NCBI RefSeq assembly: GCF_051132245.1
Contig: NZ_CP081184.1
Reading direction: 5' to 3' (one strand)
Source of the DNA: Riemerella anatipestifer
GTDB lineage: Bacteria; Bacteroidota; Bacteroidia; Flavobacteriales; Weeksellaceae
DNA length: 64,000 nucleotides
Within the stretch, counting starts at the first letter, position 1. The number at the start of each line of letters is the position of its first letter. The notes beneath the pieces are model-generated. The model had not been told where the DNA came from. It saw nothing but the letters and a program-made list of their open reading frames with translations, and did not search any database. Made by a program: the position numbers and the translations under genes. Shown piece after piece: positions 1-62,315 of the stretch.

Positions 1-3000
1 TTCCGCTTATGGGGGCTCATTTACGGGTGGGCTTAATTATACCAACTCCGTTACACAGAGCCGCATCCAGTTTTTGGATATGAACGGCGACGGCTTGGCA
101 GACCGTGTGGTGTATGGCGATAGCCATACGCTGGTGTATCAGAATTTAGGCAACACTTGGGACACAACGCCTTTGGTTATTCCTAAAGTAGCGGGCAACC
201 CTATTGCCGTAAACCGAGCGATTAGCTACGGGGGCAGTGCCAAGTATTCGGTGTATTTCAAATTTAAGTTCATCAAATTTGGCTTCACGGCGGGGGGCTT
301 TGCAGGTAAGAGTACCAGCCGAATGGAGGCGGCGTTTATGGATGTGGACGGCGATGGCGATTTAGACTACATCTTGTCCGATGGCGAGGACGACCTCCGT
401 GTGGCGACCTCTAATATACGCCGTACCAATAGGCTTAAAAGCGTTAAAAATGCCACGGGTAGTACCTTCGAGGTTGATTACGAGTGGGTGGCGCCTACTT
501 ACGAAAACCCTAACAGCAAGTGGGTGCTAAGCAAGGTAACCACTTTTGACGGACATCAAGGCGATGGCGAGGACTATACCGTGAGCCGTTTCACCTATAA
601 AGACCCGTACTACGACCGCCGCGAGCGGGAGTTTTATGGGTTTGCCGAAGTAAAGCAGGAACAGCTGAACCCTAAGGACGGCAAGGTGCTAAGAACTTCC
701 GTGCAGCACTATTATAACAGGGATTACTTCCGCAAATCGTTGGCGAAAAACAGCTATACCTTAGACGCCCAAGGGCGAAAACTCACCGAAAGCACCGTGC
801 AGTATCAGATTAAAAACGCCCGTACCAATACCGATTGGGAGGCGGAGCGTTTGGCACTGCCTGAAAGCGATGCCATTTCGGTCTTTATTGCCCCTACGGA
901 AACCACCGAACGCCAATACGAGGGGTCGGGGTATTTGGAGCACAAAATCGCCCAAAGCTACGATGCTAAGGGGAACATCACCACTTATCAAGACTTTGGC
1001 ACGGGCAATCCCAACTCGGCACTCAAAGCCGAAATCACTTACTACGAGAGCGAAATCCCTTACTTTGGGGGCATTGCCAAGAGCATCACGGTTCACGATG
1101 CCAACGGTTTGGTACGGAAACGCGAGGCGGACATCAACCCGCAAACGGCAGAAACCACCCAAATCCGCAACTATTTTTCGGCAGACCGCTACGCCCGCAC
1201 CGACTTGTCTTACGATGCGTACGGCAACCTTGCCCAAATCACAGGGGCGGAGAACCACAAAGGGGAGCGTTCCAGCCTTCGCTATGAATACGACAACGAA
1301 ACGCACAGCCACCTGACGAAAATTACCGACCATTTCGGCTACGAAACCCGCACGGCGTACGACTACCGCTTTAACGCTCCGTTGGAAGTGACCGACCGCA
1401 ACGGGGAGCAGCTGCACTATACCATAGACGCTAAGGGGCGTACCACGCACATTTTGGCGCCTAAAGAAGCAGCGGCGGGCGTGCCTTATACGGTGGCTTA
1501 CGACTATTATCCGGAAGCCAAAGTGCCTTACGCCAAAACGAGAAACTACGATACCGAGCACGGCAAAGACATCATCACTTATACCTATACCGACGGCTTA
1601 GGGCGTACGCTGCAAGTCAAGAAAACGGCGGCACTGTTCCAAGGGAAAAACCAAGCCGATGCCGAGCGCCTCATCGTATCGGGCAAACAAGTGTACGATG
1701 CTTTGGGTCGGGTGGTAGAGAGCTATTATCCCACCACCGAAACGCCAAGCGAGGCGTTCAGCACCCAAGCGTCCACGGTAACGCCTACCACTACGGCTTA
1801 CGACGAGAAAGACCGCCCAATATTGCAGACCCTTCCCGATGGCAGCACGGTAGCCACGGCTTATGAGGTGTCGGAAACAGCAGGCACCAAGACCCTTAAA
1901 ACCACCGTAACCGATGCGTTGGGCAGGGTGTCCCATAGTGCCACCGATGTTTTGGGCAGAACGCTGAAACAAGTGCAGCCTACGGGGATAGAAACCACCT
2001 ACCACTACAACGCCCAAGGCGAACTCCTAAAAGTAACCGATGCCGAAGGACACCAGACCCTAAGCGAGTACGACCTTTTGGGGCGTCGCACCCAACTCAC
2101 GCACCCCGATGCGGGCATCACCACATTGGCGTACGATGCGGCGGGCAACCTTATTCGCCGTCAGACCGCCCAAATTCGGGAGCAGATGCCCGATGCGGCG
2201 ATAGAATACCACTACGACCACAACCGCTTGCAGGAAATCCGCTACCCTAAGCACCCGGAGAACAATGTCCGTTACCATTACGGTAAGCAGAGCGAGAGCC
2301 CTCGCCGTCGGGGACGCTTGTGGTTGGTGGAGGACGCCAGCGGCGGTACCGAGTATTTCTACGGCAGTATGGGCGAGGTTGAAAAAGAAATCCGCTCGCT
2401 ACGCATCACGCCGACGGAGGTGCACACCTACATCACCGAATACGGGTACGACAGCTTTAACCGTATCCAAACGATGACTTACCCCGATGGTGAAGTCTTG
2501 GACTTTGGTTACAATCGGGCAGGGCAACTCACCACCCTCACGGGTAAAAAGGGCAATTACGAATACACCTACCTTAAACAACAAGGGTACGATGAGTTTG
2601 AGCAGAAAGTGTATCGCCAGTACGGCAACGGCACCGAAACCCGTTATACTTACGACCCTACAATGAGGCGTTTGGCGACACTCAACACCCAAAATACCAA
2701 ACGAACCTTTCAAGACAACCGCTATACTTACGATTTGGTGGGGAACATCTTGCAGGTGGAGAACCAAGTCCCAATCGTGAATTACGCTTTGGGTGGAGCA
2801 AGTAGCTATCAATACCAATACGACGAGCTTAACCGTCTGATAAGTGCCACAGGAACTTACACAGGTGAGGCGACTTCTGCGGAGTACCAGCTCCAAATGC
2901 AGTATAATAAGCTCAACGGTATTGTTCAAAAATCCTTAATCCACAAGCAAAACGGTAAGGATAAAGGCTATGTGCTGGATTATGTTTATGACAATAAGTC

Positions 3001-4720
3001 CCACCCCCACGCCCTAAGCGAACTTAAAGATTCTACTACACCGAAGCCAAGGGCTTACGAGTACGATGGCAATGGTAATCCTATCTCTTACGAGGGCTTT
3101 AAGGACTTTAGAGTAATGGTATGGGACGAGGAGAACAGACTGCAAGGTTTAAACGACAATGGCAAACTCCACCTTTACACTTACGACCACACAGGCGAAA
3201 GAGCCGTAAAAAGTAGTGCGGAAAGTCAGAAGACTGTTATCAATGGGGTAAGTTCCGCCGTCATCGTTCACGCGGAGAATTATACGGCGTACATTAACCC
3301 TTATTTTGTAGTTAATAAGGGTAAGTTTACCAAGCATTATTTTGAAGGTACAAGCCGTATTGTTTCTAAGTTAGGGGAAGGTACATTTCATCAGCCGACG
3401 GGCTTAACCGCTGGCGGTATAGACTACATTAAGCAAAGTGCGAAAGTTCAAGAGGCGATTGACAGTTACATTAGAGGTCTGAATGTCCCACCAGGTCCGC
3501 CAACCCAGCACGGTATATACGGCACACCTGACTTTACAGGTGTAGAATATCCGTCGATTGACTGGAGTGATATATCTCAAGACCAAGAGCCACCAGAGGG
3601 TTGGCCAAGACCGCCGAAGTTTAACGAGCCGGGTGATGTGCCGGGTCCACCAGTACAATACGGCGACCCCGTGAAACCCGATAATGTGAAAGGTGGGTTT
3701 GGTTATGTGGATAATGGGATAGAAGAGAAAAACTTGTATTTCTATCACCCTGACCACTTAGGTAGCAGTAGTTACATTACAGACAAAGACGGGAACATCA
3801 ATCAACATACGGAATATATGGCGTTTGGCGAAATTCTGTTTGACGAGCATAAAGTGAGCAGAAGAATGCCGTATCTTTTCAATGGTAAGGAGTTAGATAG
3901 TGAGACAGGGTTGTATTATTATGGGGCGAGGTATTATGATCCAAGAGTAAGTTTGTGGCTGAATGTAGACCCGTTAGTAGAAAAAACAATGCAACCGTAT
4001 GCTTATACTAATAATAATCCTATAATGTTGATAGATCCTGATGGTAGGGCAGCAATGCCTCCAGATGATCATTTTGATCATAATGGGAAGTTTTTATACA
4101 CAGATAACAGAAAAACAAATAATATTATCATTCATGTACCGTATATTAGAGATAATTCAAATGTTTTTCAAAGTATATCAAATAGTCTCTTTGGAACCAA
4201 ATATGGAATAGAAAAAGGAATAAATCAAGTACAGTTGAAGGATTATAAATTTAATAATGTAAAGGATTTTGCTTTATTAAATAATATAGCAAAGCACTAT
4301 GCCAAAGATGCTGATGTAGATGTTAAGAAACTATATAATGGTAATTTTTCTGTGGGAGCGTTTAATAATGTTACAGGTGTAGGATTGGCACTCTCGGGAA
4401 AAAAGATTGGTTTTAATGGTGGTGAGTTTTGGGGGATGACACAAGAAGGAGCAATTCCAATGATGCATACGGATGGAAATAAGGTTGTCATTGATATTTA
4501 TAATAACCGTATAGCGGATATTTTTTTGAATGATAAATATAACTTTATTAGTGTTTTAGGTCATGAAGGAAGTTCAAAAGGACACTTAGGTTTACCAAAT
4601 GCAAAGCATAGTACAATTTACGAAAATCAAAAACAAAGACCTCTTTTTAAGTATACAACACCAGAGTTTAAAGAGCATGTTGAAAATAATATTAAATATT
4701 ATAAAAGCAATGGAGATTAG
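1..4720 (+). CDS. Rhs/YD-repeat polymorphic toxin, 5'-truncated by window edge. The reading frame is open back to base 2. It has an N-terminal FG-GAP/SpvB-like segment, many YD repeats and an RHS core ending ...YYGARYYDPRVSLWLNVDPL...NNNPIMLIDPDGR. A ~215-aa variable C-terminal toxin domain follows (CT-1, nt ~4075-4720)
   Basis: 1548-aa ORF with repeated YDxxGN/YxYDxxG motifs and the canonical Rhs core terminus PxxxxDPxGL. The core-encoding DNA is visibly GC-rich and the CT-encoding DNA is AT-rich, as in other Rhs genes. Confidence 0.9.
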   Translation, partial: SAYGGSFTGGLNYTNSVTQSRIQFLDMNGDGLADRVVYGDSHTLVYQNLGNTWDTTPLVIPKVAGNPIAVNRAISYGGSAKYSVYFKFKFIKFGFTAGGFAGKSTSRMEAAFMDVDGDGDLDYILSDGEDDLRVATSNIRRTNRLKSVKNATGSTFEVDYEWVAPTYENPNSKWVLSKVTTFDGHQGDGEDYTVSRFTYKDPYYDRREREFYGFAEVKQEQLNPKDGKVLRTSVQHYYNRDYFRKSLAKNSYTLDAQGRKLTESTVQYQIKNARTNTDWEAERLALPESDAISVFIAPTETTERQYEGSGYLEHKIAQSYDAKGNITTYQDFGTGNPNSALKAEITYYESEIPYFGGIAKSITVHDANGLVRKREADINPQTAETTQIRNYFSADRYARTDLSYDAYGNLAQITGAENHKGERSSLRYEYDNETHSHLTKITDHFGYETRTAYDYRFNAPLEVTDRNGEQLHYTIDAKGRTTHILAPKEAAAGVPYTVAYDYYPEAKVPYAKTRNYDTEHGKDIITYTYTDGLGRTLQVKKTAALFQGKNQADAERLIVSGKQVYDALGRVVESYYPTTETPSEAFSTQASTVTPTTTAYDEKDRPILQTLPDGSTVATAYEVSETAGTKTLKTTVTDALGRVSHSATDVLGRTLKQVQPTGIETTYHYNAQGELLKVTDAEGHQTLSEYDLLGRRTQLTHPDAGITTLAYDAAGNLIRRQTAQIREQMPDAAIEYHYDHNRLQEIRYPKHPENNVRYHYGKQSESPRRRGRLWLVEDASGGTEYFYGSMGEVEKEIRSLRITPTEVHTYITEYGYDSFNRIQTMTYPDGEVLDFGYNRAGQLTTLTGKKGNYEYTYLKQQGYDEFEQKVYRQYGNGTETRYTYDPTMRRLATLNTQNTKRTFQDNRYTYDLVGNILQVENQVPIVNYALGGASSYQYQYDELNRLISATGTYTGEATSAEYQLQMQYNKLNGIVQKSLIHKQNGKDKGYVLDYVYDNKSHPHALSELKDSTTPKPRAYEYDGNGNPISYEGFKDFRVMVWDEENRLQGLNDNGKLHLYTYDHTGERAVKSSAESQKTVINGVSSAVIVHAENYTAYINPYFVVNKGKFTKHYFEGTSRIVSKLGEGTFHQPTGLTAGGIDYIKQSAKVQEAIDSYIRGLNVPPGPPTQHGIYGTPDFTGVEYPSIDWSDISQDQEPPEGWPRPPKFNEPGDVPGPPVQYGDPVKPDNVKGGFGYVDNGIEEKNLYFYHPDHLGSSSYITDKDGNINQHTEYMAFGEILFDEHKVSRRMPYLFNGKELDSETGLYYYGARYYDPRVSLWLNVDPLVEKTMQPYAYTNNNPIMLIDPDGRAAMPPDDHFDHNGKFLYTDNRKTNNIIIHVPYIRDNSNVFQSISNSLFGTKYGIEKGINQVQLKDYKFNNVKDFALLNNIAKHYAKDADVDVKKLYNGNFSVGAFNNVTGVGLALSGKKIGFNGGEFWGMTQEGAIPMMHTDGNKVVIDIYNNRIADIFLNDKYNFISVLGHEGSSKGHLGLPNAKHSTIYENQKQRPLFKYTTPEFKEHVENNIKYYKSNGD

Positions 4721-5203: not shown

Positions 5204-6199
5204 TTGTTATCCAGAGGAGAGGTTCTTTTAAATATTGGTTTAGACAAAGACGGTAACATTAGCCAACACACAGAGTATATCGCCTTTGGCGAGGTGCTGT
5301 TTGATGAGCATAAAGTAAGCCGACGAATGCCGTATCTTTTCAATGGTAAGGAGTTAGATAGTGAGACAGGACTATACTACTATGGAGCGAGGTATTACGA
5401 CCCGAGAGTAAGTTTGTGGCTGAATGTAGACCCGTTAGTAGAAAAAACAATGCAACCGTATGCTTATACGAATAATAACCCTATAATGTTGATAGACCCA
5501 ACGGGTATGGAGGCAGAGGATTGTCCTACTTGTCCAAAACCAGAGAGAGCGGAGCAAACTTTTAGGGTAAATAATAACACCTATGTTGCGACCCCTGCAC
5601 AAGAAAATTCTAATAATTTAGAGTGGGTAAAGCAGAGAGATATAGAAGGCGTAACGCTAACAAGAAACAAGGCAGATGAAAATATAAGAGCAGCAAGGTT
5701 GCGTTTAAGCCAAGCCATAGCTAATAGTCCTGCGGCTAAGTCTGTGGAACGATTTGAGAAAGGTTTAGCAATAGCAACGGGAGGTGTTATTTTAGTCCCG
5801 CTACTACCTTATGCGGTAAGTACTGGTTCTACTTCTGTATTAGCGACTAAAGCAGGTATTAGTATAGGTACACAGGTAATGGTCAGCCAAGATGTAAATT
5901 TGGTAAAGTTGGGAGCAGATACATTCTTAACTCCTTTAGCGGGTACTTTGGTTGGTAATTCATCAAACTTGAGTGCAAAACAATTAATAAATCAACGGTA
6001 TGAAAGTGCTTTTTCAATGTCCTCAAAGCAAGAGTTATTTGTTGGGGTAAGTACTGATTTGGTTTTTATGGGGCGTAATAATTTATATAAAAGAGCAGGT
6101 CTTCCAATAGTAGGGAATACTATAATTGAAGTACAATCCGAAATACTTTCACAAGAAATATCAAAACATATTCAAATAAAATTAAATAATGGAAAATAG
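5204..6199 (+). CDS. Orphan Rhs C-terminal fragment. It has only the last ~100 aa of the RHS core (DKDGNISQHTEY...DPTGMEAEDCPTCPKP) plus a distinct Gly/Ala-rich hydrophobic CT (CT-2)
   Basis: Homology to main rhs residues ~1240-1335 starts at nt ~5237. Different C-terminal domain. No YD-repeat body. Confidence 0.7.
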   Translation: MLSRGEVLLNIGLDKDGNISQHTEYIAFGEVLFDEHKVSRRMPYLFNGKELDSETGLYYYGARYYDPRVSLWLNVDPLVEKTMQPYAYTNNNPIMLIDPTGMEAEDCPTCPKPERAEQTFRVNNNTYVATPAQENSNNLEWVKQRDIEGVTLTRNKADENIRAARLRLSQAIANSPAAKSVERFEKGLAIATGGVILVPLLPYAVSTGSTSVLATKAGISIGTQVMVSQDVNLVKLGADTFLTPLAGTLVGNSSNLSAKQLINQRYESAFSMSSKQELFVGVSTDLVFMGRNNLYKRAGLPIVGNTIIEVQSEILSQEISKHIQIKLNNGK

Positions 6200-6597: not shown

Positions 6598-6735
6598 TTA
6601 AAGTTAGTGATGCTTATCTCCTATTCACTGCATCAGCCTTGCGTAAAATTTCCATCGAGATGGAAATTTTCCTCCATCGAGATGGAGATTTTTTTCCATC
6701 GAGGAGGAAAAAAGTTTGGGGCGGAGAAGAAATTT
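6598..6735. repeat. Palindromic REP/MITE-like element family A, copy 1 (core AAAATTTCCATC-GA-GATGGAAATTTT). Its 5' end carries a partial cassette-boundary motif (AAGTTAGTGATGCTTATCTCCTATTCACTGCATCAG)
   Basis: Same element at 25718-25850 and 45343-45412, with core CTCGCGTAAAATTTCC-N8-GGAAATTTTACGCGAG. Confidence 0.7.
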
Positions 6736-6775: not shown

Positions 6776-7153
6776 ATGAAATACAAGTTAGTACAAAGAG
6801 GGAAACCCGGAGATTCGGAAGCCCCAAAGAAGTGGTACGCAAACCCTGTAAAAACGGGAAGCGTTAATCAAAAAAGCCTGTCCAAAGAGATTTCGGGGCG
6901 TTCCTCGCTTACGGCAGGAGATGTGAGCAATGTAATTCAGAACTTGTTGGATATTCTACCGTCAAAACTTGTGGAAGGCAACAGTGTACAGTTGGGGGAT
7001 TTCGGTACATTTAGAGTGTCTTTTTCCAGTGAAGGCGTAGATACAGAGAAAGACTTTACGACGGATAAAATTAAAGGTGTAAAAGTCTTATTCACTCCGA
7101 GTTCGGATTTTAAAAGAGTGTTAAGTGAGATGAGGTTCGAGCAGGAAAAATAA
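6776..7153 (+). CDS. Bacteroidota-type HU-family DNA-binding protein (HU-HIG-like, ~125 aa)
   Basis: Size and C-terminal KGVKVLFTPSSDFK-type HU fold signature. Sits between a family-A and a family-B repeat. Confidence 0.6.
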   Translation: MKYKLVQRGKPGDSEAPKKWYANPVKTGSVNQKSLSKEISGRSSLTAGDVSNVIQNLLDILPSKLVEGNSVQLGDFGTFRVSFSSEGVDTEKDFTTDKIKGVKVLFTPSSDFKRVLSEMRFEQEK

Positions 7154-7159
7154 GACTGA

Positions 7160-10100
7160 ATGCAGGTCGTACCTTCTAAAGCGTTGTGTTATTCGCGTAA
7201 GGGATGGCAGCGGTTACCCCACAGGCACAAAGCGGTGGGGTCTTTTGATGTAGGTGTGGCGAGGAGTAAAAGCGAACAGCCCGACCCGAGTAGTGGGTTT
7301 CAGCATTGGCGGGGGATACGCCCAAGAAAAGGAAAAGGACGCCAACTCACAGACAAAGGGGAGCGTTCGAGCCTTCGCTATGAATACGACGAGGAAACGC
7401 ACAGCCACCTGACGAAAATTACCGACCATTTCGGCTACGAAACCCGCACGGCGTACGACTACCGCTTTAACGCTCCGTTGGAAGTTACCGACCGCAACGG
7501 GGAGCAGCTGCACTATACCATAGACGCTAAGGGGCGTACCACGCATATTTTGGCGCCTAAAGAAGCAGCGGCGGGCGTGCCTTACACGGTGGCTTACGAC
7601 TATTATCCGGAAGCCAAAGTGCCTTACGCCAAAACAAGAAACTACGATGCCGAGCACGGCAAAGACATCATCACTTATACCTATACCGACGGCTTAGGGC
7701 GTACGCTGCAAGTCAAGAAAACGGCGGCACTGTTCCAAGGGAAAAACCAAGCCGATGCCGAGCGCCTCATTGTATCGGGCAAACAAGTGTACGATGCTTT
7801 GGGTCGGGTGGTAGAGAGCTATTACCCGACTACCGAAACGCCAAGCGAAGCGTTCAGCACCCAAGTTTCTACGGTAACGCCTACCACTACGGCTTACGAC
7901 GAGAAAGACCGCCCAATATTGCAAACCCTTCCCGATGGCAGCACGGTAGCCACGGCTTATGAGGTGTCGGAAACAGCAGGCACCAAGACCCTTAAAACCA
8001 CCGTAACCGATGCGTTGGGCAGGGTGTCCCATAGTGCCACCGATGTTTTGGGCAGAACGCTGAAACAGGTGCAGCCTACGGGGATAGAAACCACCTACCA
8101 CTACAACGCCCAAGGCGAACTCCTAAAAGTAACCGATGCCGAGGGACACCAGACCCTGAGCGAGTACGATCTTTTGGGGCGTCGCACCCAACTCACGCAC
8201 CCCGATGCGGGCATCACCACATTGGCGTACGATGCGGCGGGCAACCTTATACGCCGTCAGACCGCCCAAATTAGGGAGCAGATGCCCGATGCGGCGATAG
8301 AATACCACTACGACCACAACCGCTTGCAGGAAATCCGCTACCCTAAGCACCCGGAGAACAATGTCCGTTACCATTACGGTAAGCAGAGCGAGAGCCCTCG
8401 CCGTCGGGGACGCTTGTGGCTGGTGGAGGACGCCAGCGGTGGCACCGAGTATTTCTACGGCAGTATGGGCGAGGTTGAAAAAGAAATCCGCTCGCTACGC
8501 ATCACGCCGACGGAGGTGCACACCTACATCACCGAATACGGGTACGACAGCTTTAACCGTATCCAAACGATGACTTACCCCGATGGCGAAGTCTTGGACT
8601 TTGGCTACAATCGGGCGGGGCAACTCACCACCCTCACGGGGAAAAAGGGCAACTACGAATACACCTACCTTAAACAACAGGGGTACGACGAGTTCGAGCA
8701 GAAAGTGTATCGCCAGTACGGCAACGGTACTGAAACCCGTTATACTTACGACCCTACAATGAGGCGTTTGGCAACGCTCAACACCCAAAACACCAAACGA
8801 ACCTTCCAAGACAACCGCTATACTTACGATTTAGTGGGGAACATCTTGCAGGTGGAGAACCAAGTCCCAATCGTGAATTACGCTTTGGGTGGAGCTTCGT
8901 TATATAGCTATTCTTATGATGAATTGAATAGATTGGTAACGGCAGAGGGAACTTATACAGGCGACCAAAGCCAAGCCAGTTATACGCTGAATATGCAGTA
9001 TAACAAACTTAATGGCATCGTTCAAAAATCCTTAACCCACAAGCAAAACGGTAAGGACAAAGGTTATACATTAGATTATACCTATAACAATTCTAAACAC
9101 CCACACGCTTTAAGTATCCTAAAAGATACCACCACGCCTAAACCTCGCACCTATGAGTACGACGGCAATGGTAATCCGATAAGCTACGAGGGCTTTAAGG
9201 ATTTTAGAGTGATGGTATGGGACGAGGAGAACAGAATGCAAGGTTTAAACGACAATGGCAAACTCCACCTTTACACTTACGACCACACAGGCGAGAGAGC
9301 CGTAAAAAGTAGTGCGGAAAGTCAGAAGACCGTTATCAATGGCGTAAGTTCCGCCGTTATCGTTCACGCCGAGAATTACACGGCTTACATCAACCCTTAT
9401 TTTGTGGTTAATAAGGGTAAGTTTACCAAACATTACTTCGAGGGAACTTCGAGGATAGTAAGCAAACTGGGCGAAGGTACCTTTCATCAGCCAACAGGTA
9501 TAACCGCTGGTGGGATAGATTATATCAAGCAGTCAGCTAAGGTACAAGAGGCGATTGATAGTTATATTAGAGGTCTGAATGTACCACCGGGACCGCCAAC
9601 CCAGCACGGTATATACGGCACACCTGACTTTACAGGTGTGGAATATCCGTCTATTGACTGGAGTGATATATCCCAAGACCAAGAGCCACCAGAGGGTTGG
9701 CCAAGACCACCGAAGTTTAACGAACCGGGCGATGTGCCGGGTCCGCCAGTACAATACGGCGACCCAGTAAAGCCTGACAATGTTAAAGGAGGCTTTGGTT
9801 ATGTGGATAATGGGATAGAGGAAAAGAATTTATACTACTATCACCCTGACCATTTGGGTTCAAGTTCATACATTACAGATGTTAATGGTGATATAAACCA
9901 GCATACGGAGTATATGGCATTTGGTGAGGTATTGTTTGACGAACACAAGGTAAGCCGACGAATGCCGTATCTTTTCAATGGTAAGGAGTTAGACTCTGAA
10001 ACAGGGCTATACTACTACGGTGCAAGGTATTATGACCCAAGAGTATCTATATTCTTAAATGTAGACCCGTTAGTAGAAAAAACAATGCAACCGTATGCTT

Positions 10101-10834
10101 ATACGAATAATAATCCTATAATGTTGATAGACCCAACGGGTATGGAAGCAGAAGACCCGCCAACGAAATCACAATATATAGGACAGATTTACAAAGACGA
10201 CACGGGTACTTTTGTAGGAGGAAAGGACGGTTCTTGGAATGCAACAAGAAATGACGGCTCTAAAGAAACTATAATACCAGAGGTTAACTTGACGGCGAAG
10301 TCAAAGAGTAGTCAGAATGAACAAGCTGCAAGAATGCGTTTAAGCCAAGCTATAGAGAATACTAAAGCAGGGCAATCAATGAAATCTTTAGAGAGTTTTA
10401 TGTTTTATGATATGCCAATGAATATAGCAGGAGGAGAGTTAATTTCTGCTGGTTTAAAGGCTGCAAATATCTCTACAAGAGTTGGTAATTTTTTAAGTAG
10501 ATTTACGACAGCAGAGGGTTTTATGGGAGGAGCTATAGGTTTTAGATTACCGTTTAATTTAAATGTAGGATTGTATGCATCAGAAAATACACTTACATAT
10601 GGAACTTTTAAATGGAGTACCATTGCACCTAAAGTTTTAACTAAGAATGAATGGTTTGGGAGAAATATGCTTCAAATAACTCCAGAGTTTCAGTCAACAT
10701 TAGGCAGTTGGAGTAAGCAAGTTATTCCCAAAGGAACTTATATAAAGGTGGGATTAGTAGGTCAGCAAAGAGGAAATGCTCTGGGAACTTGGGTGCAGAT
10801 TTATGCTCCAAATAGAGTCCCATTTATTAAATAA
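7160..10834 (+). CDS. 5'-truncated rhs duplicate (rhs fragment 2). Near-identical to main rhs residues ~397-1335 from nt ~7356 on. The non-homologous N-terminal 65 codons are read through repeat B1. It carries a distinct Gly-rich CT (CT-3) after DPTGMEAEDPPTKSQ
   Basis: ~2.8-kb near-identical duplication of 1264-4050. The junction (KGERSSLRYEYD) coincides with the end of repeat B1. No credible native start; likely expressed only after recombination into the main gene or from an internal start. Confidence 0.75.
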   Translation: MQVVPSKALCYSRKGWQRLPHRHKAVGSFDVGVARSKSEQPDPSSGFQHWRGIRPRKGKGRQLTDKGERSSLRYEYDEETHSHLTKITDHFGYETRTAYDYRFNAPLEVTDRNGEQLHYTIDAKGRTTHILAPKEAAAGVPYTVAYDYYPEAKVPYAKTRNYDAEHGKDIITYTYTDGLGRTLQVKKTAALFQGKNQADAERLIVSGKQVYDALGRVVESYYPTTETPSEAFSTQVSTVTPTTTAYDEKDRPILQTLPDGSTVATAYEVSETAGTKTLKTTVTDALGRVSHSATDVLGRTLKQVQPTGIETTYHYNAQGELLKVTDAEGHQTLSEYDLLGRRTQLTHPDAGITTLAYDAAGNLIRRQTAQIREQMPDAAIEYHYDHNRLQEIRYPKHPENNVRYHYGKQSESPRRRGRLWLVEDASGGTEYFYGSMGEVEKEIRSLRITPTEVHTYITEYGYDSFNRIQTMTYPDGEVLDFGYNRAGQLTTLTGKKGNYEYTYLKQQGYDEFEQKVYRQYGNGTETRYTYDPTMRRLATLNTQNTKRTFQDNRYTYDLVGNILQVENQVPIVNYALGGASLYSYSYDELNRLVTAEGTYTGDQSQASYTLNMQYNKLNGIVQKSLTHKQNGKDKGYTLDYTYNNSKHPHALSILKDTTTPKPRTYEYDGNGNPISYEGFKDFRVMVWDEENRMQGLNDNGKLHLYTYDHTGERAVKSSAESQKTVINGVSSAVIVHAENYTAYINPYFVVNKGKFTKHYFEGTSRIVSKLGEGTFHQPTGITAGGIDYIKQSAKVQEAIDSYIRGLNVPPGPPTQHGIYGTPDFTGVEYPSIDWSDISQDQEPPEGWPRPPKFNEPGDVPGPPVQYGDPVKPDNVKGGFGYVDNGIEEKNLYYYHPDHLGSSSYITDVNGDINQHTEYMAFGEVLFDEHKVSRRMPYLFNGKELDSETGLYYYGARYYDPRVSIFLNVDPLVEKTMQPYAYTNNNPIMLIDPTGMEAEDPPTKSQYIGQIYKDDTGTFVGGKDGSWNATRNDGSKETIIPEVNLTAKSKSSQNEQAARMRLSQAIENTKAGQSMKSLESFMFYDMPMNIAGGELISAGLKAANISTRVGNFLSRFTTAEGFMGGAIGFRLPFNLNVGLYASENTLTYGTFKWSTIAPKVLTKNEWFGRNMLQITPEFQSTLGSWSKQVIPKGTYIKVGLVGQQRGNALGTWVQIYAPNRVPFIK
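7195..7323 (+). repeat. GC-rich structured repeat family B, copy 1 (GCGTAAGGGATGGCAGCGG...GTGGCGAGGAGTAAAAGCGAACAGCCCGACCCGAG...TTGGCGGGGGATACGCCC)
   Basis: Copies at 25941-26067 (+) and 45101-45213 (-). An internal hairpin covaries between copies (ACCCCAC/GTGGGGT vs CCACAGC/GCTGTGG vs GCTAC/GTAGC). Confidence 0.7.
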
Positions 10835-25717: not shown

Positions 25718-25850
25718 TTAGCTCTCATTCACTGCGTCGGTCTCGCGTAAAATTTCCTGCCCGATGGAAATTTTACGCGAGGCCGACGGAAAAATCACGC
25801 GAGGCTGATGGAAAAAATTTTGCTCCTCGATGGAGTGAAATGGGCTTCGG
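25718..25850. repeat. Repeat family A, copy 2 (CTCGCGTAAAATTTCC-TGCCCGAT-GGAAATTTTACGCGAG perfect 16-bp stem)
   Basis: See 6598-6735. Confidence 0.7.
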
Positions 25851-25940
25851 GGAGGGTGTTTTTTGTTTTGGGGGGTGTGCGTGGTGGTTGCAAGGTGGTG
25901 GTGGAGCGTGGGGCTTGGCGCTGTGGCTAGGGGTGGGGGT

Positions 25941-26067
25941 GCGTAAGGGATAGGAGCGGCTACCCCACAGCCACAGAGGGTAGGCACCGTGCGGAAGCTG
26001 TGGCGAGGAGTAATAGCGGATAGCCCGACCCGAGCAGCGGGCTTAAGCGCTGGCGAGGGATACGCCC
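25941..26067 (+). repeat. Repeat family B, copy 2, preceded by a G-tract-rich segment (25850-25940)
   Basis: See 7195-7323. Confidence 0.7.
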
Positions 26068-45100: not shown

Positions 45101-45213
45101 GGGTGTATCCCTCGCCAATGACTTTACCAGTCGCTCGGGTTGGGCTATCCACTTTTACTCCTCGCTACAGCCATACGAAGCCTCATAGAGATAGTAGCTC
45201 CTGTCCCTTACGC
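45101..45213 (-). repeat. Repeat family B, copy 3 (reverse orientation)
   Basis: Reverse complement matches B1/B2 conserved blocks, with a covarying hairpin. Confidence 0.7.
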
Positions 45214-45342: not shown

Positions 45343-45412
45343 TTTTTTTCATCAGTCTCGCGTAAAATTTCCATCGGGCAAGAAATTTTACGCGAGGCCG
45401 ACGCAACGAAAG
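45343..45412. repeat. Repeat family A, copy 3 (CATCAGTCTCGCGTAAAATTTCCATCGGGCAAGAAATTTTACGCGAGGCCGACG). A boundary-motif-like sequence GGTTGCCGCTGGATACCAGAGTATATATAAGTTAGTGGCAAC follows at 45478-45521
   Basis: See 6598-6735. Confidence 0.65.
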
Positions 45413-61756: not shown

Positions 61757-61899
61757 GCCATTCACAATAATTAAAAAAATCCCGAAAATACCTCAATCGC
61801 TTCTAAAAAAACATAATAAAGTCTTATAAGTGTCCTTTTTCAATCCCAAAACGCCAACCTTTGGGCGTTAATAAAAAATAATGCTTCAATTTTTAACCT

Positions 61900-62270
61900 A
61901 AAAGTACCTTAGGCGATAGAAAAAATATCGGTAGGGATAGAAAAAAGTCGTGTAGGAACACAAAAATGGTCTGTAGGAATACAAAAACAACGGTGAGGAA
62001 TAGAAGAATGGCAGTGAGGAACACAAAAATGGCTTGTAGGAACACAAAAACGGCTTTGAGGAATAGAAGAATGGCAGTGAGGAACATAAAAATGGCTTGT
62101 AGGAATATAAAAACGACGGTGAGGAATAGAAGAATGGCAGTGAGGAACATAAAAATGGCTTGTAGGAATATAAAAACGACGGTGAGGAATAGAAGAATGG
62201 CAGTGAGGAACACAAAAATGGCTTGTAGGAATACAAAAACGGCTTTGAGGAATAGAAGAATGAACAGTTT
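61900..62270. repeat. Tandem repeat array, ~17 units of 21 bp organised as ~5 higher-order 63-bp units (GTGAGGAACAyAAAAATGGCTT GTAGGAATAyAAAAACGrCG GTGAGGAATAGAAGAATGGCA)
   Basis: Contiguous periodic repeats without spacers. Spurious ORFs are predicted on both strands. Confidence 0.85.
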
Positions 62271-62315
62271 TTGTCTATAAAATTGATAATAATTCAAAAA
62301 GAAACTAATTAGTTG

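What the first reader, a model, noticed from the sequence alone, without database searches (positions are those of the whole stretch)
7195..7323. GC-rich ~125-nt element (family B) in three copies with covarying hairpins: candidate structured ncRNA or MITE
In an AT-rich background, three copies (7195-7323 +, 25941-26067 +, 45101-45213 -) share conserved blocks GCGTAAGGGA...AGCGG, GTGGCGAGGAGTAAWAGYG, AGCCCRACCCGAG and TTGGCGRGGGATACRCCC. The segment between the first two blocks differs in sequence but always forms a hairpin: ACCCCAC/GTGGGGT in B1, CCACAGC/GCTGTGG in B2, GCTAC/GTAGC in B3. Compensatory change that preserves pairing is the hallmark of selection on RNA or DNA secondary structure. 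Two copies lie immediately downstream of genes (the giant ATPase and the thioredoxin gene). The third abuts a truncated rhs copy.
Basis: seen in the sequence. Interest (0 to 1): 0.6.

Follow-up and report, generated by a model that had tools for sequence, protein, structure and literature searches.

The report
Flavo-1 structured repeat, three copies
The three GC-rich elements are real copies of Flavo-1, a known many-copy folded repeat of Bacteroidota whose function is still unknown, so this is a correct but largely ordinary observation.

Summary
Three copies sit at 7195-7323 (+), 25941-26067 (+) and 45101-45213 (-) of a Riemerella anatipestifer window, and each conserved block occurs only there.

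They belong to the Flavo-1 motif (Weinberg 2010, RF01705). The published alignment contains the same GCGUKAGGGAUWGNAGCGGUUACCCC...AGCGNAWAGCCCGACC subtype. The current Rfam model scores this subtype only 25-34 bits against a threshold of 42, so pipelines miss it.

From 127 copies in genomes, plasmids and viral contigs I derived a three-way junction:
- a closing helix GCGUK/MACGC, absent from the Rfam model;
- a long arm with purine-rich internal loops and a variable tip;
- a second variable hairpin.

Covariation is strong and the fold is strand-specific.

Copies are intergenic, have no conserved neighbour gene, promoter, terminator, terminal inverted repeat or target duplication, and are oriented almost randomly relative to genes. 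Near-identical copies sit in unrelated flanks within one genome and across genera, which implies amplification. A published Flavobacterium psychrophilum transcriptome reports 128 copies, lying sense or antisense to transcribed regions and many outside them.

Best reading: a REP/BOX-like self-amplifying structured repeat. The mechanism of spread and any host role are unproven. B1 and B2 are intact; B3 is decayed.

The parts
7195..7323 (+). Flavo-1 copy B1, intact, 129 nt. Closing helix P1 is GCGTA 7195-7199 with TACGC 7317-7321. The 5' strand of the long arm is 7201-7225. Variable hairpin 1 is about 7225-7258. The conserved 3' strand GCGAGGAGTAAAAGCGAACAGCCCGA is 7259-7284. Variable hairpin 2 is 7285-7315.
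   Evidence: CM R1 hit of 73.6 bits, E 8e-13. Rfam Flavo-1 hit of 28.3 bits, E 3.5e-4, below the threshold of 42. Sequence read.
25941..26067 (+). Flavo-1 copy B2, intact, 127 nt. P1 is GCGTA 25941-25945 with TACGC 26061-26065. It is identical in strain NJ-1 (L069).
   Evidence: CM R1 hit of 73.0 bits. Rfam Flavo-1 hit of 24.9 bits, E 5.7e-3. L069 scores the same.
45101..45213 (-). Flavo-1 copy B3, decayed, 113 nt. The 5' strand of the long arm is rearranged and P1 has one mismatch (GCGTA/TACAC).
   Evidence: CM R1 hit of only 36.2 bits. Alignment. The orthologous copy in another strain (L071) scores 38.3 bits.
6624..6687 (+). 'Family A' palindrome (GCGTAAAATTTCC...GGAAATTTTACGC type) with short ATCGAG-loop hairpins, upstream of the HU-HIG gene. 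It is not part of Flavo-1 but lies 5' of each copy in this window.
   Evidence: The same element lies upstream of a paralogous HU-HIG gene in other R. anatipestifer strains (L180-L182).
25728..25794 (+). Family A palindrome, about 23-bp stem, 146 nt 5' of B2. The HU gene is missing here.
45344..45410 (-). Family A palindrome 130 nt 5' of B3. It is followed by a remnant resembling the HU gene start (GTTACGAAATAC versus GTTATGAAATAC).
6776..7153 (+). HU-HIG family DNA-binding protein gene. Its stop codon is 42 nt before B1 on the same strand.
   Evidence: Pfam PF18291, E 2e-32. 100% identical to a Riemerella anatipestifer protein.
7355..10834 (+). 5'-truncated Rhs copy. Homology to the main Rhs (74-4720, residues 396-1348, 94% identity) starts 32 nt after B1. 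The ORF listed from 7160 merely reads through the GC-rich element.
   Evidence: BLASTP. ORF list.

Best explanation
**Identity.** The three elements are copies of the Flavo-1 motif. This is a Bacteroidota-wide, high-copy, intergenic, strand-specific element.

**Fold.** One strand folds into a three-way junction with three parts.
- A 5-bp closing helix, GCGUK/MACGC.
- A long irregular arm. It carries conserved purine-rich internal loops (symmetric GNA/GNA, and GRY/AWA) and ends in a hairpin of variable length.
- A second variable hairpin, CCC...GGG.

The unit ends ...ACGCCC and is usually followed by AAA.

**Most likely nature (inferred).** It is a non-autonomous, self-amplifying structured repeat, comparable to REP/BIME, BOX or Correia elements. 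New copies with exact ends GCGU...CGCCC are deposited in AT-rich intergenic DNA. The single-stranded fold is what is selected. It may be RNA when a neighbouring transcript reads through, or single-stranded DNA during propagation. The fold probably serves as the recognition platform for a conserved trans-acting protein.

**In this window.** The copies are passengers. B1 and B2 are intact and B3 is decaying. All three appear to descend from one 'palindrome A - HU-HIG gene - Flavo-1' cassette, of which two copies have lost the gene.

**Shown versus inferred.**
- Shown: identity, fold, strand specificity, dispersal, and amplification with sharp ends.
- Inferred: the mode of propagation, the protein partner and any host role.

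**Confidence.** About 0.95 for identity, about 0.9 for the fold, and about 0.5 for 'selfish or REP-like amplifying repeat' over a dedicated RNA function.
For: **Identity**
- Rfam Flavo-1 is the only significant hit.
- The published Flavo-1 alignment contains the same sequence subtype.

**Distribution**
- 69 loci across Chitinophagia, Cytophagia, Flavobacteriia, Bacteroidia and Sphingobacteriia.
- 61 Bacteroidales plasmid records.
- About 39 IMG/VR contigs.

**Fold**
- Genome set: 95.9% of cells paired, and 19 of 24 pairs change on both sides. Slid controls pair at only 36-48%.
- Independent viral and plasmid set: 94.3% paired, 16 of 24 pairs.
- P1 pair 5 occurs as G-C 38, U-A 30, A-U 5 and C-G 3.
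- The arm pair occurs as A-U 36, U-A 25 and G-C 12.

**Strand specificity**
- Among 92 unique variable hairpins, the sense strand is more stable in 61 and the antisense in 21 (Wilcoxon p = 1.4e-5).
- G-U pairs number 67 on the sense strand and 43 on the antisense.

**Amplification**
- Six copies in one Chitinophagaceae MAG are 95% identical over exactly 94 nt. Their flanks are 26-33% identical, which is chance level.
- L057 and L060 come from different genera. The element is 97% identical, the flanks 55% and 8%.

**Not gene-linked**
- No neighbouring protein family recurs in more than 4 of 69 loci.
- Orientation classes are 15, 14, 10 and 9.
- There is no conserved promoter or terminator in the flanks.

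**Literature**
- F. psychrophilum has 128 copies. They lie sense or antisense to transcribed regions, and many lie outside them (PMC9723704).

**Cassette origin in the window:**
Against: - No filled-versus-empty site was found despite three attempts, so mobility is inferred rather than seen.
- No transposase, reverse transcriptase or RAYT-like gene is associated with the element.
- Internal-loop sequences are conserved across the whole phylum. That is unusual for selfish repeats and fits a conserved host partner, meaning a real function.
- Compensatory changes occur at orthologous loci (L003 versus L062, hairpin 2) and among near-identical copies. This suggests the fold matters after insertion.
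- Alignments were fitted to the model, and many copies are related. Covariation counts are therefore inflated.
- Local GC-skew bias of orientation is only weak, 73:49 with p = 0.04. This gives no support for lagging-strand-coupled ssDNA transposition.
Confidence: 0.55

Rival explanations
1. Host-functional RNA module acting in cis. When a copy lies in the sense orientation inside a 5' or 3' UTR, the three-way junction binds a conserved RNA-binding protein or blocks or directs RNases, tuning the stability or translation of the neighbouring mRNA. For example, B1 lies 42 nt after the HU-HIG stop codon. Antisense or untranscribed copies would be neutral by-products.
For: - The fold is strand-specific, with a G-U excess on one strand.
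- Purine-rich internal loops, tandem G-A modules and GNRA-like loops are typical of protein-binding RNAs.
- The core is conserved phylum-wide.
- Compensatory changes occur at an orthologous locus.
- In one MAG, copies sit 55-80 nt upstream of paralogous MORN-repeat genes in the sense orientation.
- Some F. psychrophilum 5' transcribed regions coincide with Flavo-1.
Against: - Orientation relative to neighbouring genes is near random: 34 downstream genes on the same strand and 23 on the opposite strand.
- B2 and B3 are antisense to their adjacent genes.
- Of the 11 Flavo-1 mentions in the F. psychrophilum table of structured 5' UTRs, 4 are noted as lying on the opposite strand. Many copies are not in transcribed regions.
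- No gene family is associated.
Confidence: 0.25
2. Independent trans-acting small RNA genes, which is the 'Gene; sRNA' label used by Rfam. Each copy would have its own promoter and terminator and would regulate targets by base pairing.
For: - The Rfam type annotation.
- The structure is conserved.
- The variable hairpin tips could in principle carry seed regions.
Against: - There is no conserved promoter-like motif at a fixed distance and no terminator. The 3' flank is A-rich, not U-rich.
- 128 copies per genome, with low sense-strand expression in the examples seen.
- The orientation is random.
- Nothing is conserved outside the sharp element ends.
Confidence: 0.07
3. Element mobilised specifically as single-stranded DNA by a Y1/HUH transposase, like IS200/IS605-derived PATEs or REP-RAYT systems. 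The hairpins would be DNA hairpins and the conserved ends would be cleavage sites. This is a more specific version of the best explanation.
For: - There are no TIRs and no TSD, and the fold is strand-specific.
- The minimal copies cap both hairpins with C(GNA)G triloops such as GCGAAGC. From my own knowledge, these are the classic extra-stable DNA mini-hairpins.
- The flanks are biased, with T or C at -1 and AAA at +1 to +3.
- Copies occur in conjugative plasmids near ArdC-like genes.
Against: - No Y1 transposase was found near any copy.
- Flank preference is loose rather than a fixed tetranucleotide.
- The bias relative to GC skew is only weak.
- The conserved multi-loop junction is more elaborate than known HUH recognition hairpins.
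Confidence: 0.15
4. Protein-coding sequence: B1 is the N-terminus of the Rhs ORF 7160-10834.
For: The ORF list shows an open frame running through B1.
Against: - Rhs homology starts at residue 66, which is nt 7355, after the element.
- The same sequence occurs in non-coding contexts on either strand in more than 100 loci.
- A GC-rich sequence simply lacks stop codons.
Confidence: 0.01

Closest known systems
Flavo-1 RNA motif (Rfam RF01705; Weinberg et al. 2010, PMC2864571)
   Same: - It has the same conserved strands, GGGAUWGNAGCGG and AGCGNAWAGCCCGA.
- It has the same paired arm with two 3x3 internal loops and a variable-length apical hairpin.
- It has the same phylum, multicopy and intergenic distribution.
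- The published alignment contains sequences starting GCGUKAGGGAU... exactly like these.
   Different: - The Rfam model (76 positions) stops at ...GCCCGA. It lacks the closing helix GCGUK/MACGC and the second hairpin, so it describes a hairpin rather than a three-way junction.
- This GC-rich subtype scores only 25-34 bits against the threshold of 42.
- The window copies have long insertions in both hairpins.
REP/BIME elements of Enterobacteria and Pseudomonas
   Same: - They are high-copy, intergenic and structured.
- They have no TSD and are orientation-independent.
- Copies cluster or nest with other repeats (L121).
   Different: - REPs are 20-40 nt simple palindromes, specific to a species or genus, and linked to RAYT genes.
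- Flavo-1 is a 77-190 nt three-way junction conserved across a phylum, with no RAYT seen.
BOX elements of Streptococcus pneumoniae and Correia/NEMIS elements of Neisseria
   Same: - They are about 100-200 nt intergenic repeats with stable folds and modular, variable-length parts.
- They are co-transcribed with neighbours, and their mobilising enzyme is unknown or absent.
   Different: - Correia elements have 26-nt TIRs and a TA duplication.
- BOX is built from boxA/B/C modules.
- Flavo-1 has neither, and it shows much deeper phylogenetic conservation and base-pair covariation.
IS200/IS605-derived PATEs and TnpB omega-RNA scaffolds
   Same: - They have strand-specific hairpins.
- They have no TIR or TSD and have sharp ends.
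   Different: - No fixed target tetranucleotide is seen.
- No TnpA or TnpB gene is nearby.
- There is no guide-like variable segment at an end.

Membership tests
Flavo-1 (RF01705) | Conserved arm strands GGGAUWGNAGCGG ... AGCGNAWAGCCCGA, pairing with two 3x3 internal loops. | tested here: met
   Alignments to the Rfam consensus. The original seed alignment shows the same subtype. B1 and B2 are complete; B3 keeps only the 3' strand.
Flavo-1 (RF01705) | Score at or above Rfam's gathering threshold of 42 bits. | tested here: not met
   B1 scores 28.3 and B2 scores 24.9; B3 gives no hit. The same shortfall appears for minimal copies elsewhere, at 28-34 bits. This is a limit of the model for this subtype and is not a biological criterion.
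Flavo-1 (RF01705) | Variable-length apical hairpin with covariation. The published summary table codes the motif 'COV V nc'; I read COV as covariation and V as variable-length stems. | tested here: met
   Element length ranges from 77 to 191 nt.
Flavo-1 (RF01705) | Bacteroidota host, many intergenic copies per genome. | tested here: met
   The window is Riemerella anatipestifer. There are 3 copies in 64 kb, all intergenic. F. psychrophilum has 128 copies.
Classical MITE | Terminal inverted repeats of 10 bp or more. | tested here: not met
   Only the 5-bp helix GCGUK/MACGC is present, followed by unpaired CC.
Classical MITE | Target-site duplication flanking each copy. | tested here: not met
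   The flanks are T-rich on the 5' side and AAA on the 3' side, with no direct repeats.
Classical MITE | Near-identical copies in unrelated flanks with sharp borders. | tested here: met
   95% identity in the element versus 26-33% in the flanks. 97% versus 55% and 8% across genera.
Classical MITE | Filled and empty sites among related genomes. | tested here: inconclusive
   All close relatives of the plasmid loci carry the copy. The one relative without it is too diverged to align.
Trans-acting sRNA gene | Own promoter and terminator at conserved distances. | tested here: not met
   Flank composition shows no fixed motif and an A-rich 3' flank. Sigma-70-type scans are negative or uninformative. 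The Bacteroidota -7 motif was looked for by eye only.
Cis-regulatory leader or riboswitch | Consistent sense orientation upstream of a gene family. | tested here: not met
   Orientation classes are 15, 14, 10 and 9. There is no recurrent neighbour.
REP-RAYT or IS200/IS605 PATE | Associated Y1/HUH transposase and a fixed target oligonucleotide. | tested here: inconclusive
   None is present within the 8-kb loci, and the flank bias is loose. Whole genomes could not be scanned.

The most novel reading that the evidence does not exclude
Flavo-1 could be a new class of bacterial non-autonomous element.

It would be an RNA-like three-way junction, conserved across a whole phylum, that spreads without terminal inverted repeats or target duplications. 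It could spread through an RNA or single-stranded-DNA intermediate. It would be recognised by a conserved host or mobile-element protein, for example one of the expanded HU-HIG nucleoid proteins next to which B1 lies.

The closing helix and second hairpin found here would be part of that recognition unit.
Probability: 0.12. Interest if true: 0.7.

Novelty: new member of a known kind. Interest (0 to 1): 0.3.

Why it matters
**What is ordinary.** Flavo-1 was reported to be among the most abundant sRNA families in a 2022 survey, and it still has no known function. This window adds nothing dramatic: it holds three further copies.

**What the follow-up does show.**
- The curated Rfam model misses a whole GC-rich subtype that is widespread in genomes, plasmids and viral contigs.
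- The motif is a closed three-way junction, not a hairpin.
- Its genomic behaviour is that of an amplifying repeat rather than a set of sRNA genes. It has sharp ends, near-identical copies in unrelated flanks and random orientation.

**Why that matters.**
- It reframes which experiments are worth doing: finding the protein partner, looking for strain polymorphism, and testing strand bias.
- It warns annotators that ORFs such as 7160-10834 can be falsely extended through these stop-free elements.

Tried and rejected
- **Rfam at gathering thresholds** on the window and on 18 loci found nothing. Only E-value mode revealed Flavo-1.
- **Single-sequence folding** gave z-scores near zero, from -0.8 to +1.0, for all three copies on both strands. 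It was uninformative.
- **A conserved neighbour gene** was sought among 598 ORFs from 69 loci. None was found.
- **Genes flanked by inverted pairs of copies** turned out, from their sequences, to look like a formyltetrahydrofolate deformylase and a membrane permease, not transposases. No family search was run on them.
- **A general HU-HIG to Flavo-1 linkage** was tested. A tblastn search of all loci was negative. Nine loci of HU-HIG homologues from Riemerella, Ornithobacterium and Bergeyella contain no Flavo-1 even with filters off. The idea was rejected as a general association.
- **The empty-site search** was run in Bacteroides plasmid families.
  - All close relatives carry the copy.
  - The Phocaeicola salanitronis relative lacks it but is too diverged for junction mapping.
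- **Exact-protein look-ups** for the thioredoxin gene failed.
- **Pairing of the 5' T-rich flank with the 3' AAA** was considered. It was rejected because there is no covariation: G at +1 is 1% although C at -1 is 35%.
- **Other identities** were considered and rejected from my own knowledge of those families rather than by a dedicated test.
  - tRNA-like: there is no T-loop.
  - Hammerhead or other ribozyme classes: there are no Rfam hits.
  - Bridge RNA or omega-RNA: here the loops are conserved and the tips vary, which is the opposite of programmable guides.
  - Integron attC: the copies are not in arrays.
- **The sigma-70-type promoter scan** is not suited to Bacteroidota and gave nothing useful.
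Full report
**1. Observation**

The three claimed copies are present at 7195-7323 (+), 25941-26067 (+) and 45101-45213 (-). Three conserved blocks were each searched with up to three mismatches. Each hits exactly these three places in 64 kb, against 0.00, 0.09 and 0.31 matches expected by chance.

A three-way alignment gives 72% mean column identity. Conservation starts sharply at GCGTAAGGGA and ends at GGGATACRCCC. The window is Riemerella anatipestifer: its HU-family protein is 100% identical to an NCBI R. anatipestifer protein. Locus L069, from strain NJ-1, contains B2 unchanged.

**2. Identity**

Rfam at curated thresholds finds nothing in the window. In E-value mode the only meaningful hit for B1 and B2 is Flavo-1 (RF01705), at 28.3 and 24.9 bits against a threshold of 42 (E 3.5e-4 and 5.7e-3).

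The supplementary alignment of the paper that defined Flavo-1 (Weinberg et al. 2010, PMC2864571) contains many sequences of the same subtype. One example is GCGUUAGGGAUAGUAGUGGUUACCCUGCAG...UAUAGCCCGG. The elements therefore belong to a family described in 2010.

The current Rfam model is centred on a different, AT-richer subtype (UAGCC-CCGAUUGAAGCGGAAAUCC...). It systematically under-scores this one.
- Eighteen further loci with clean copies give no hit at threshold.
- Four copies in L048 score 28-34 bits or are missed.

The literature held here gives no function.
- The 2010 supplement says only where the motif occurs.
- A review lists it with no function.
- The F. psychrophilum transcriptome study found 128 copies. 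It states that they lie "indistinctly" sense or antisense to transcribed regions and that many are not transcribed (PMC9723704).

**3. Distribution**

An exact scan of one genome per species with a 22-base core pattern returned 69 loci. They span Chitinophagaceae, Cytophagales, Flavobacteriales, Bacteroidales, Sphingobacteriales and Weeksellaceae, including Bergeyella and Riemerella.
- One Chitinophagaceae MAG contributes about 15 loci.
- BLAST finds copies in 61 Bacteroides, Phocaeicola and Parabacteroides plasmid records.
- My covariance model finds 42 copies in about 39 IMG/VR contigs. At least one of those contigs looks like a plasmid or ICE segment rather than a phage.

**4. Structure**

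Elements range from 77 to 191 nt. The 77-nt minimal form is:

GCGUUAGGGAUUGCAGCGAUUACCCCGCAGCGCAGCGAGGAGUAAAAGCGUAAAGCCCGACCCGAAGGGGAACGCCC.

I built a model with 24 base pairs from 19 short copies and searched everything fetched. The model has three parts.
- A 5-bp closing helix P1 (GCGUK/MACGC).
- A long arm equal to the Rfam hairpin, with extra pairs toward the tip.
- A second hairpin (CCC...GGG).

The covariation results are as follows.
- On 83 distinct genome copies, 95.9% of cells pair. Nineteen of 24 pairs show changes on both sides. Sliding the partner by 1-3 columns drops pairing to 36-48%.
- On an independent set of 37 distinct copies, mostly from IMG/VR viral contigs, pairing is 94.3% and 16 of 24 pairs covary.
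- The clearest positions are P1 pair 5 (G-C 38, U-A 30, A-U 5, C-G 3) and an arm pair (A-U 36, U-A 25, G-C 12).
- Whole-helix swaps occur too: GCAUC/GAUGC, GCACA/UGUGC, GCCUG/CAGGC and UAC/GUA to AAG/CUU.

P1 and hairpin 2 are not in the Rfam model, so the motif is a three-way junction rather than a hairpin.

Both variable hairpins grow from C(GNA)G triloops. They often grow by adding a 'GA-C/G-GNA-G/C-GA' module (tandem G-A pairs) or long perfect stems. Extra hairpins can also be inserted at internal loops (L002, L051, L058).

Caveats apply. The alignments are fitted to the model, and many copies are close relatives.

**5. Strand specificity**

For 92 unique variable hairpins, the sense strand folds better in 61 and the antisense in 21 (Wilcoxon p = 1.4e-5). 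G-U pairs number 67 against 43. The structure therefore belongs to one strand of a single-stranded nucleic acid.

This does not separate RNA from single-stranded DNA. GNA triloops such as GCGAAGC are, from my own knowledge, classic stable DNA mini-hairpins. Tandem G-A and GNRA-like loops are common in RNA.

**6. Genomic behaviour**

All copies are intergenic. Among loci with both neighbours called, the orientation classes are 15 divergent, 14 tandem-sense, 10 tandem-antisense and 9 convergent. No protein family recurs near the element in more than 4 of 69 loci.

The flanks show no direct repeats and no long inverted repeats.
- The base before the element is T (51%) or C (35%) and almost never G (3%).
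- The three bases after it are A in 78%, 75% and 73% of copies, with A-richness for about 10 nt.
- There is no fixed promoter-like motif and no U-tract.

Evidence for amplification comes from two comparisons.
- Six copies in one MAG are 95% identical over exactly 94 nt, while their flanks are at chance identity of 26-33%.
- Copies in Bergeyella cardium and an unrelated Flavobacteriaceae MAG are 97% identical, including the otherwise free hairpins, while the flanks are 55% and 8% identical.

Among the six near-identical copies, the P1 pair switches G-C to U-A in a perfectly coupled way. A seventh copy carries compensated changes in hairpin 1.

I could not find a filled/empty pair. Orientation shows only a weak bias toward the G-rich strand, 73:49 with p = 0.04.

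**7. The window itself**

- **B1** lies 42 nt after the stop codon of an HU-HIG gene (6776-7153, Pfam E 2e-32) on the same strand. It lies 32 nt before the point where a 5'-truncated Rhs copy becomes homologous to the main Rhs (residue 66 of ORF 7160-10834, which is nt 7355). The ORF that 'reads through' B1 is therefore an artefact of a stop-free GC-rich sequence.
- **Relatives of B1**, with the same hairpins, also sit just upstream of Rhs-type coding sequence in L057, L059 and L060. I recognised that sequence from its translated YD-repeat motifs. The junctions differ.
- **B2** lies 21 nt beyond the stop codon of a 1603-aa DUF3686/AAA ATPase gene but on the opposite strand.
- **B3** lies beyond what reads as the thioredoxin gene's hairpin-plus-T-run terminator, also on the opposite strand (read; the terminator scan did not list it).
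- **B3 is degenerate**, at 36 bits against 73 for the other two.

Each copy is preceded by a 'family A' palindrome (6624-6687, 25728-25794, 45344-45410). The distance is 130-150 nt in units 2 and 3, and about 500 nt in unit 1, where the HU-HIG gene lies between.
- That palindrome and about 110 nt after it form the conserved upstream region of HU-HIG genes in R. anatipestifer.
- Units 2 and 3 retain it up to a remnant of the start codon but lack the gene.
- The three copies therefore probably descend from duplications of an 'A - HU-HIG - Flavo-1' cassette.
- The HU-HIG link is not general. Homologues in Riemerella, Ornithobacterium and Bergeyella have no Flavo-1 nearby.

**8. Interpretation**

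- **Shown:** membership of Flavo-1, a strand-specific three-way junction under selection for pairing, high copy number, dispersal to plasmids and viral contigs, amplification with sharp ends, and no gene linkage.
- **Inferred:** it behaves as a REP/BOX-like self-amplifying structured repeat. Its fold would be the recognition unit for a conserved protein. Individual copies may incidentally act in RNA when transcribed.
- **Main rival:** a host-functional cis-acting RNA module. This is supported by the depth of conservation and by compensation at orthologous sites. It is weakened by the random orientation and the published expression data.

**9. Verdict**

The finding is real and was correctly sensed as a structured repeat, but it belongs to a family known since 2010. 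The new points are modest.
- A blind spot in the Rfam model.
- The closing helix and second hairpin.
- The conserved 3' CCC-AAA.
- The repeat-like genomic behaviour.

Noticed in passing
window 6624-6687, 25728-25794, 45344-45410; L180-L182 2365-2398: An AT-rich perfect palindrome (CGTCGGCCTCGCGTAAAATTTCC...GGAAATTTTACGCGAGGCCGACG, up to a 23-bp stem) is followed by short hairpins with ATCGAG loops. It is the conserved upstream region of HU-HIG genes in Riemerella anatipestifer. Two of the three window copies have lost the gene but keep a start-codon remnant.
   Followed up: partly
window 74-23200: An array holds one long Rhs gene followed by at least six 5'-truncated Rhs copies. They share a 300-nt core-end repeat at 70-93% identity (3317, 9413, 13105, 15076, 16876, 19443, 21774). 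Each is followed by small ORFs, which I take to be an orphan toxin and immunity cassette array. The 7355-10834 copy is 94% identical to the main gene over 953 residues.
   Followed up: partly
window 7217-7241; L057, L059, L060 hairpin 1: In the B1 lineage, the loop of hairpin 1 carries GUGGGGU. This is perfectly complementary to the family-wide conserved ACCCCAC strand of the main arm. It allows an alternative fold that would break the consensus arm, and it is conserved in three genera.
   Followed up: partly
window 25850-25940: A G-rich tract of about 90 nt (GGGGAGGG...GGGGGG...GGTGGTGGTGG...GGGGTGGGGG) lies between the family A palindrome and B2. It is unusual in this AT-rich genome.
   Followed up: no
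window 61895-62283: A tandem array of at least 12 units with a 21-nt period, 61-87% identical, overlaps ORFs on both strands (61893-62297 on the minus strand, 61966-62280 on the plus strand).
   Followed up: no
L039 804-870 and 2295-2361; L048 about 5810-5880; L029 about 7810-7870: In the 'BW' Bacteroidetes MAGs, a second conserved module of about 70 nt (GGCACAAT..TGCA.CTATGTGTC....CACCTCACGTGCC) sits 5-25 nt upstream of Flavo-1 copies. Those copies precede paralogous MORN-repeat genes. The whole leader appears to be duplicated together with the genes.
   Followed up: partly
L121 282-554 and 6236-6504: A 270-nt inverted repeat in an IMG/VR contig is made of a full Flavo-1 copy plus an upstream GC-rich part. 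That part looks like a partial, inverted Flavo-1 3' half, so the repeats are nested or clustered.
   Followed up: partly
L177 4001-4077 and about 30 related Bacteroides plasmids; L115 8600-9340: In a widespread family of conjugative Bacteroidales plasmids, a Flavo-1 copy abuts the stop codon of a small serine recombinase gene, convergently, in the region next to an ArdC-like gene. In L115, a GC-rich stretch of about 700 nt that looks non-coding separates the copy from the ArdC-like gene.
   Followed up: partly
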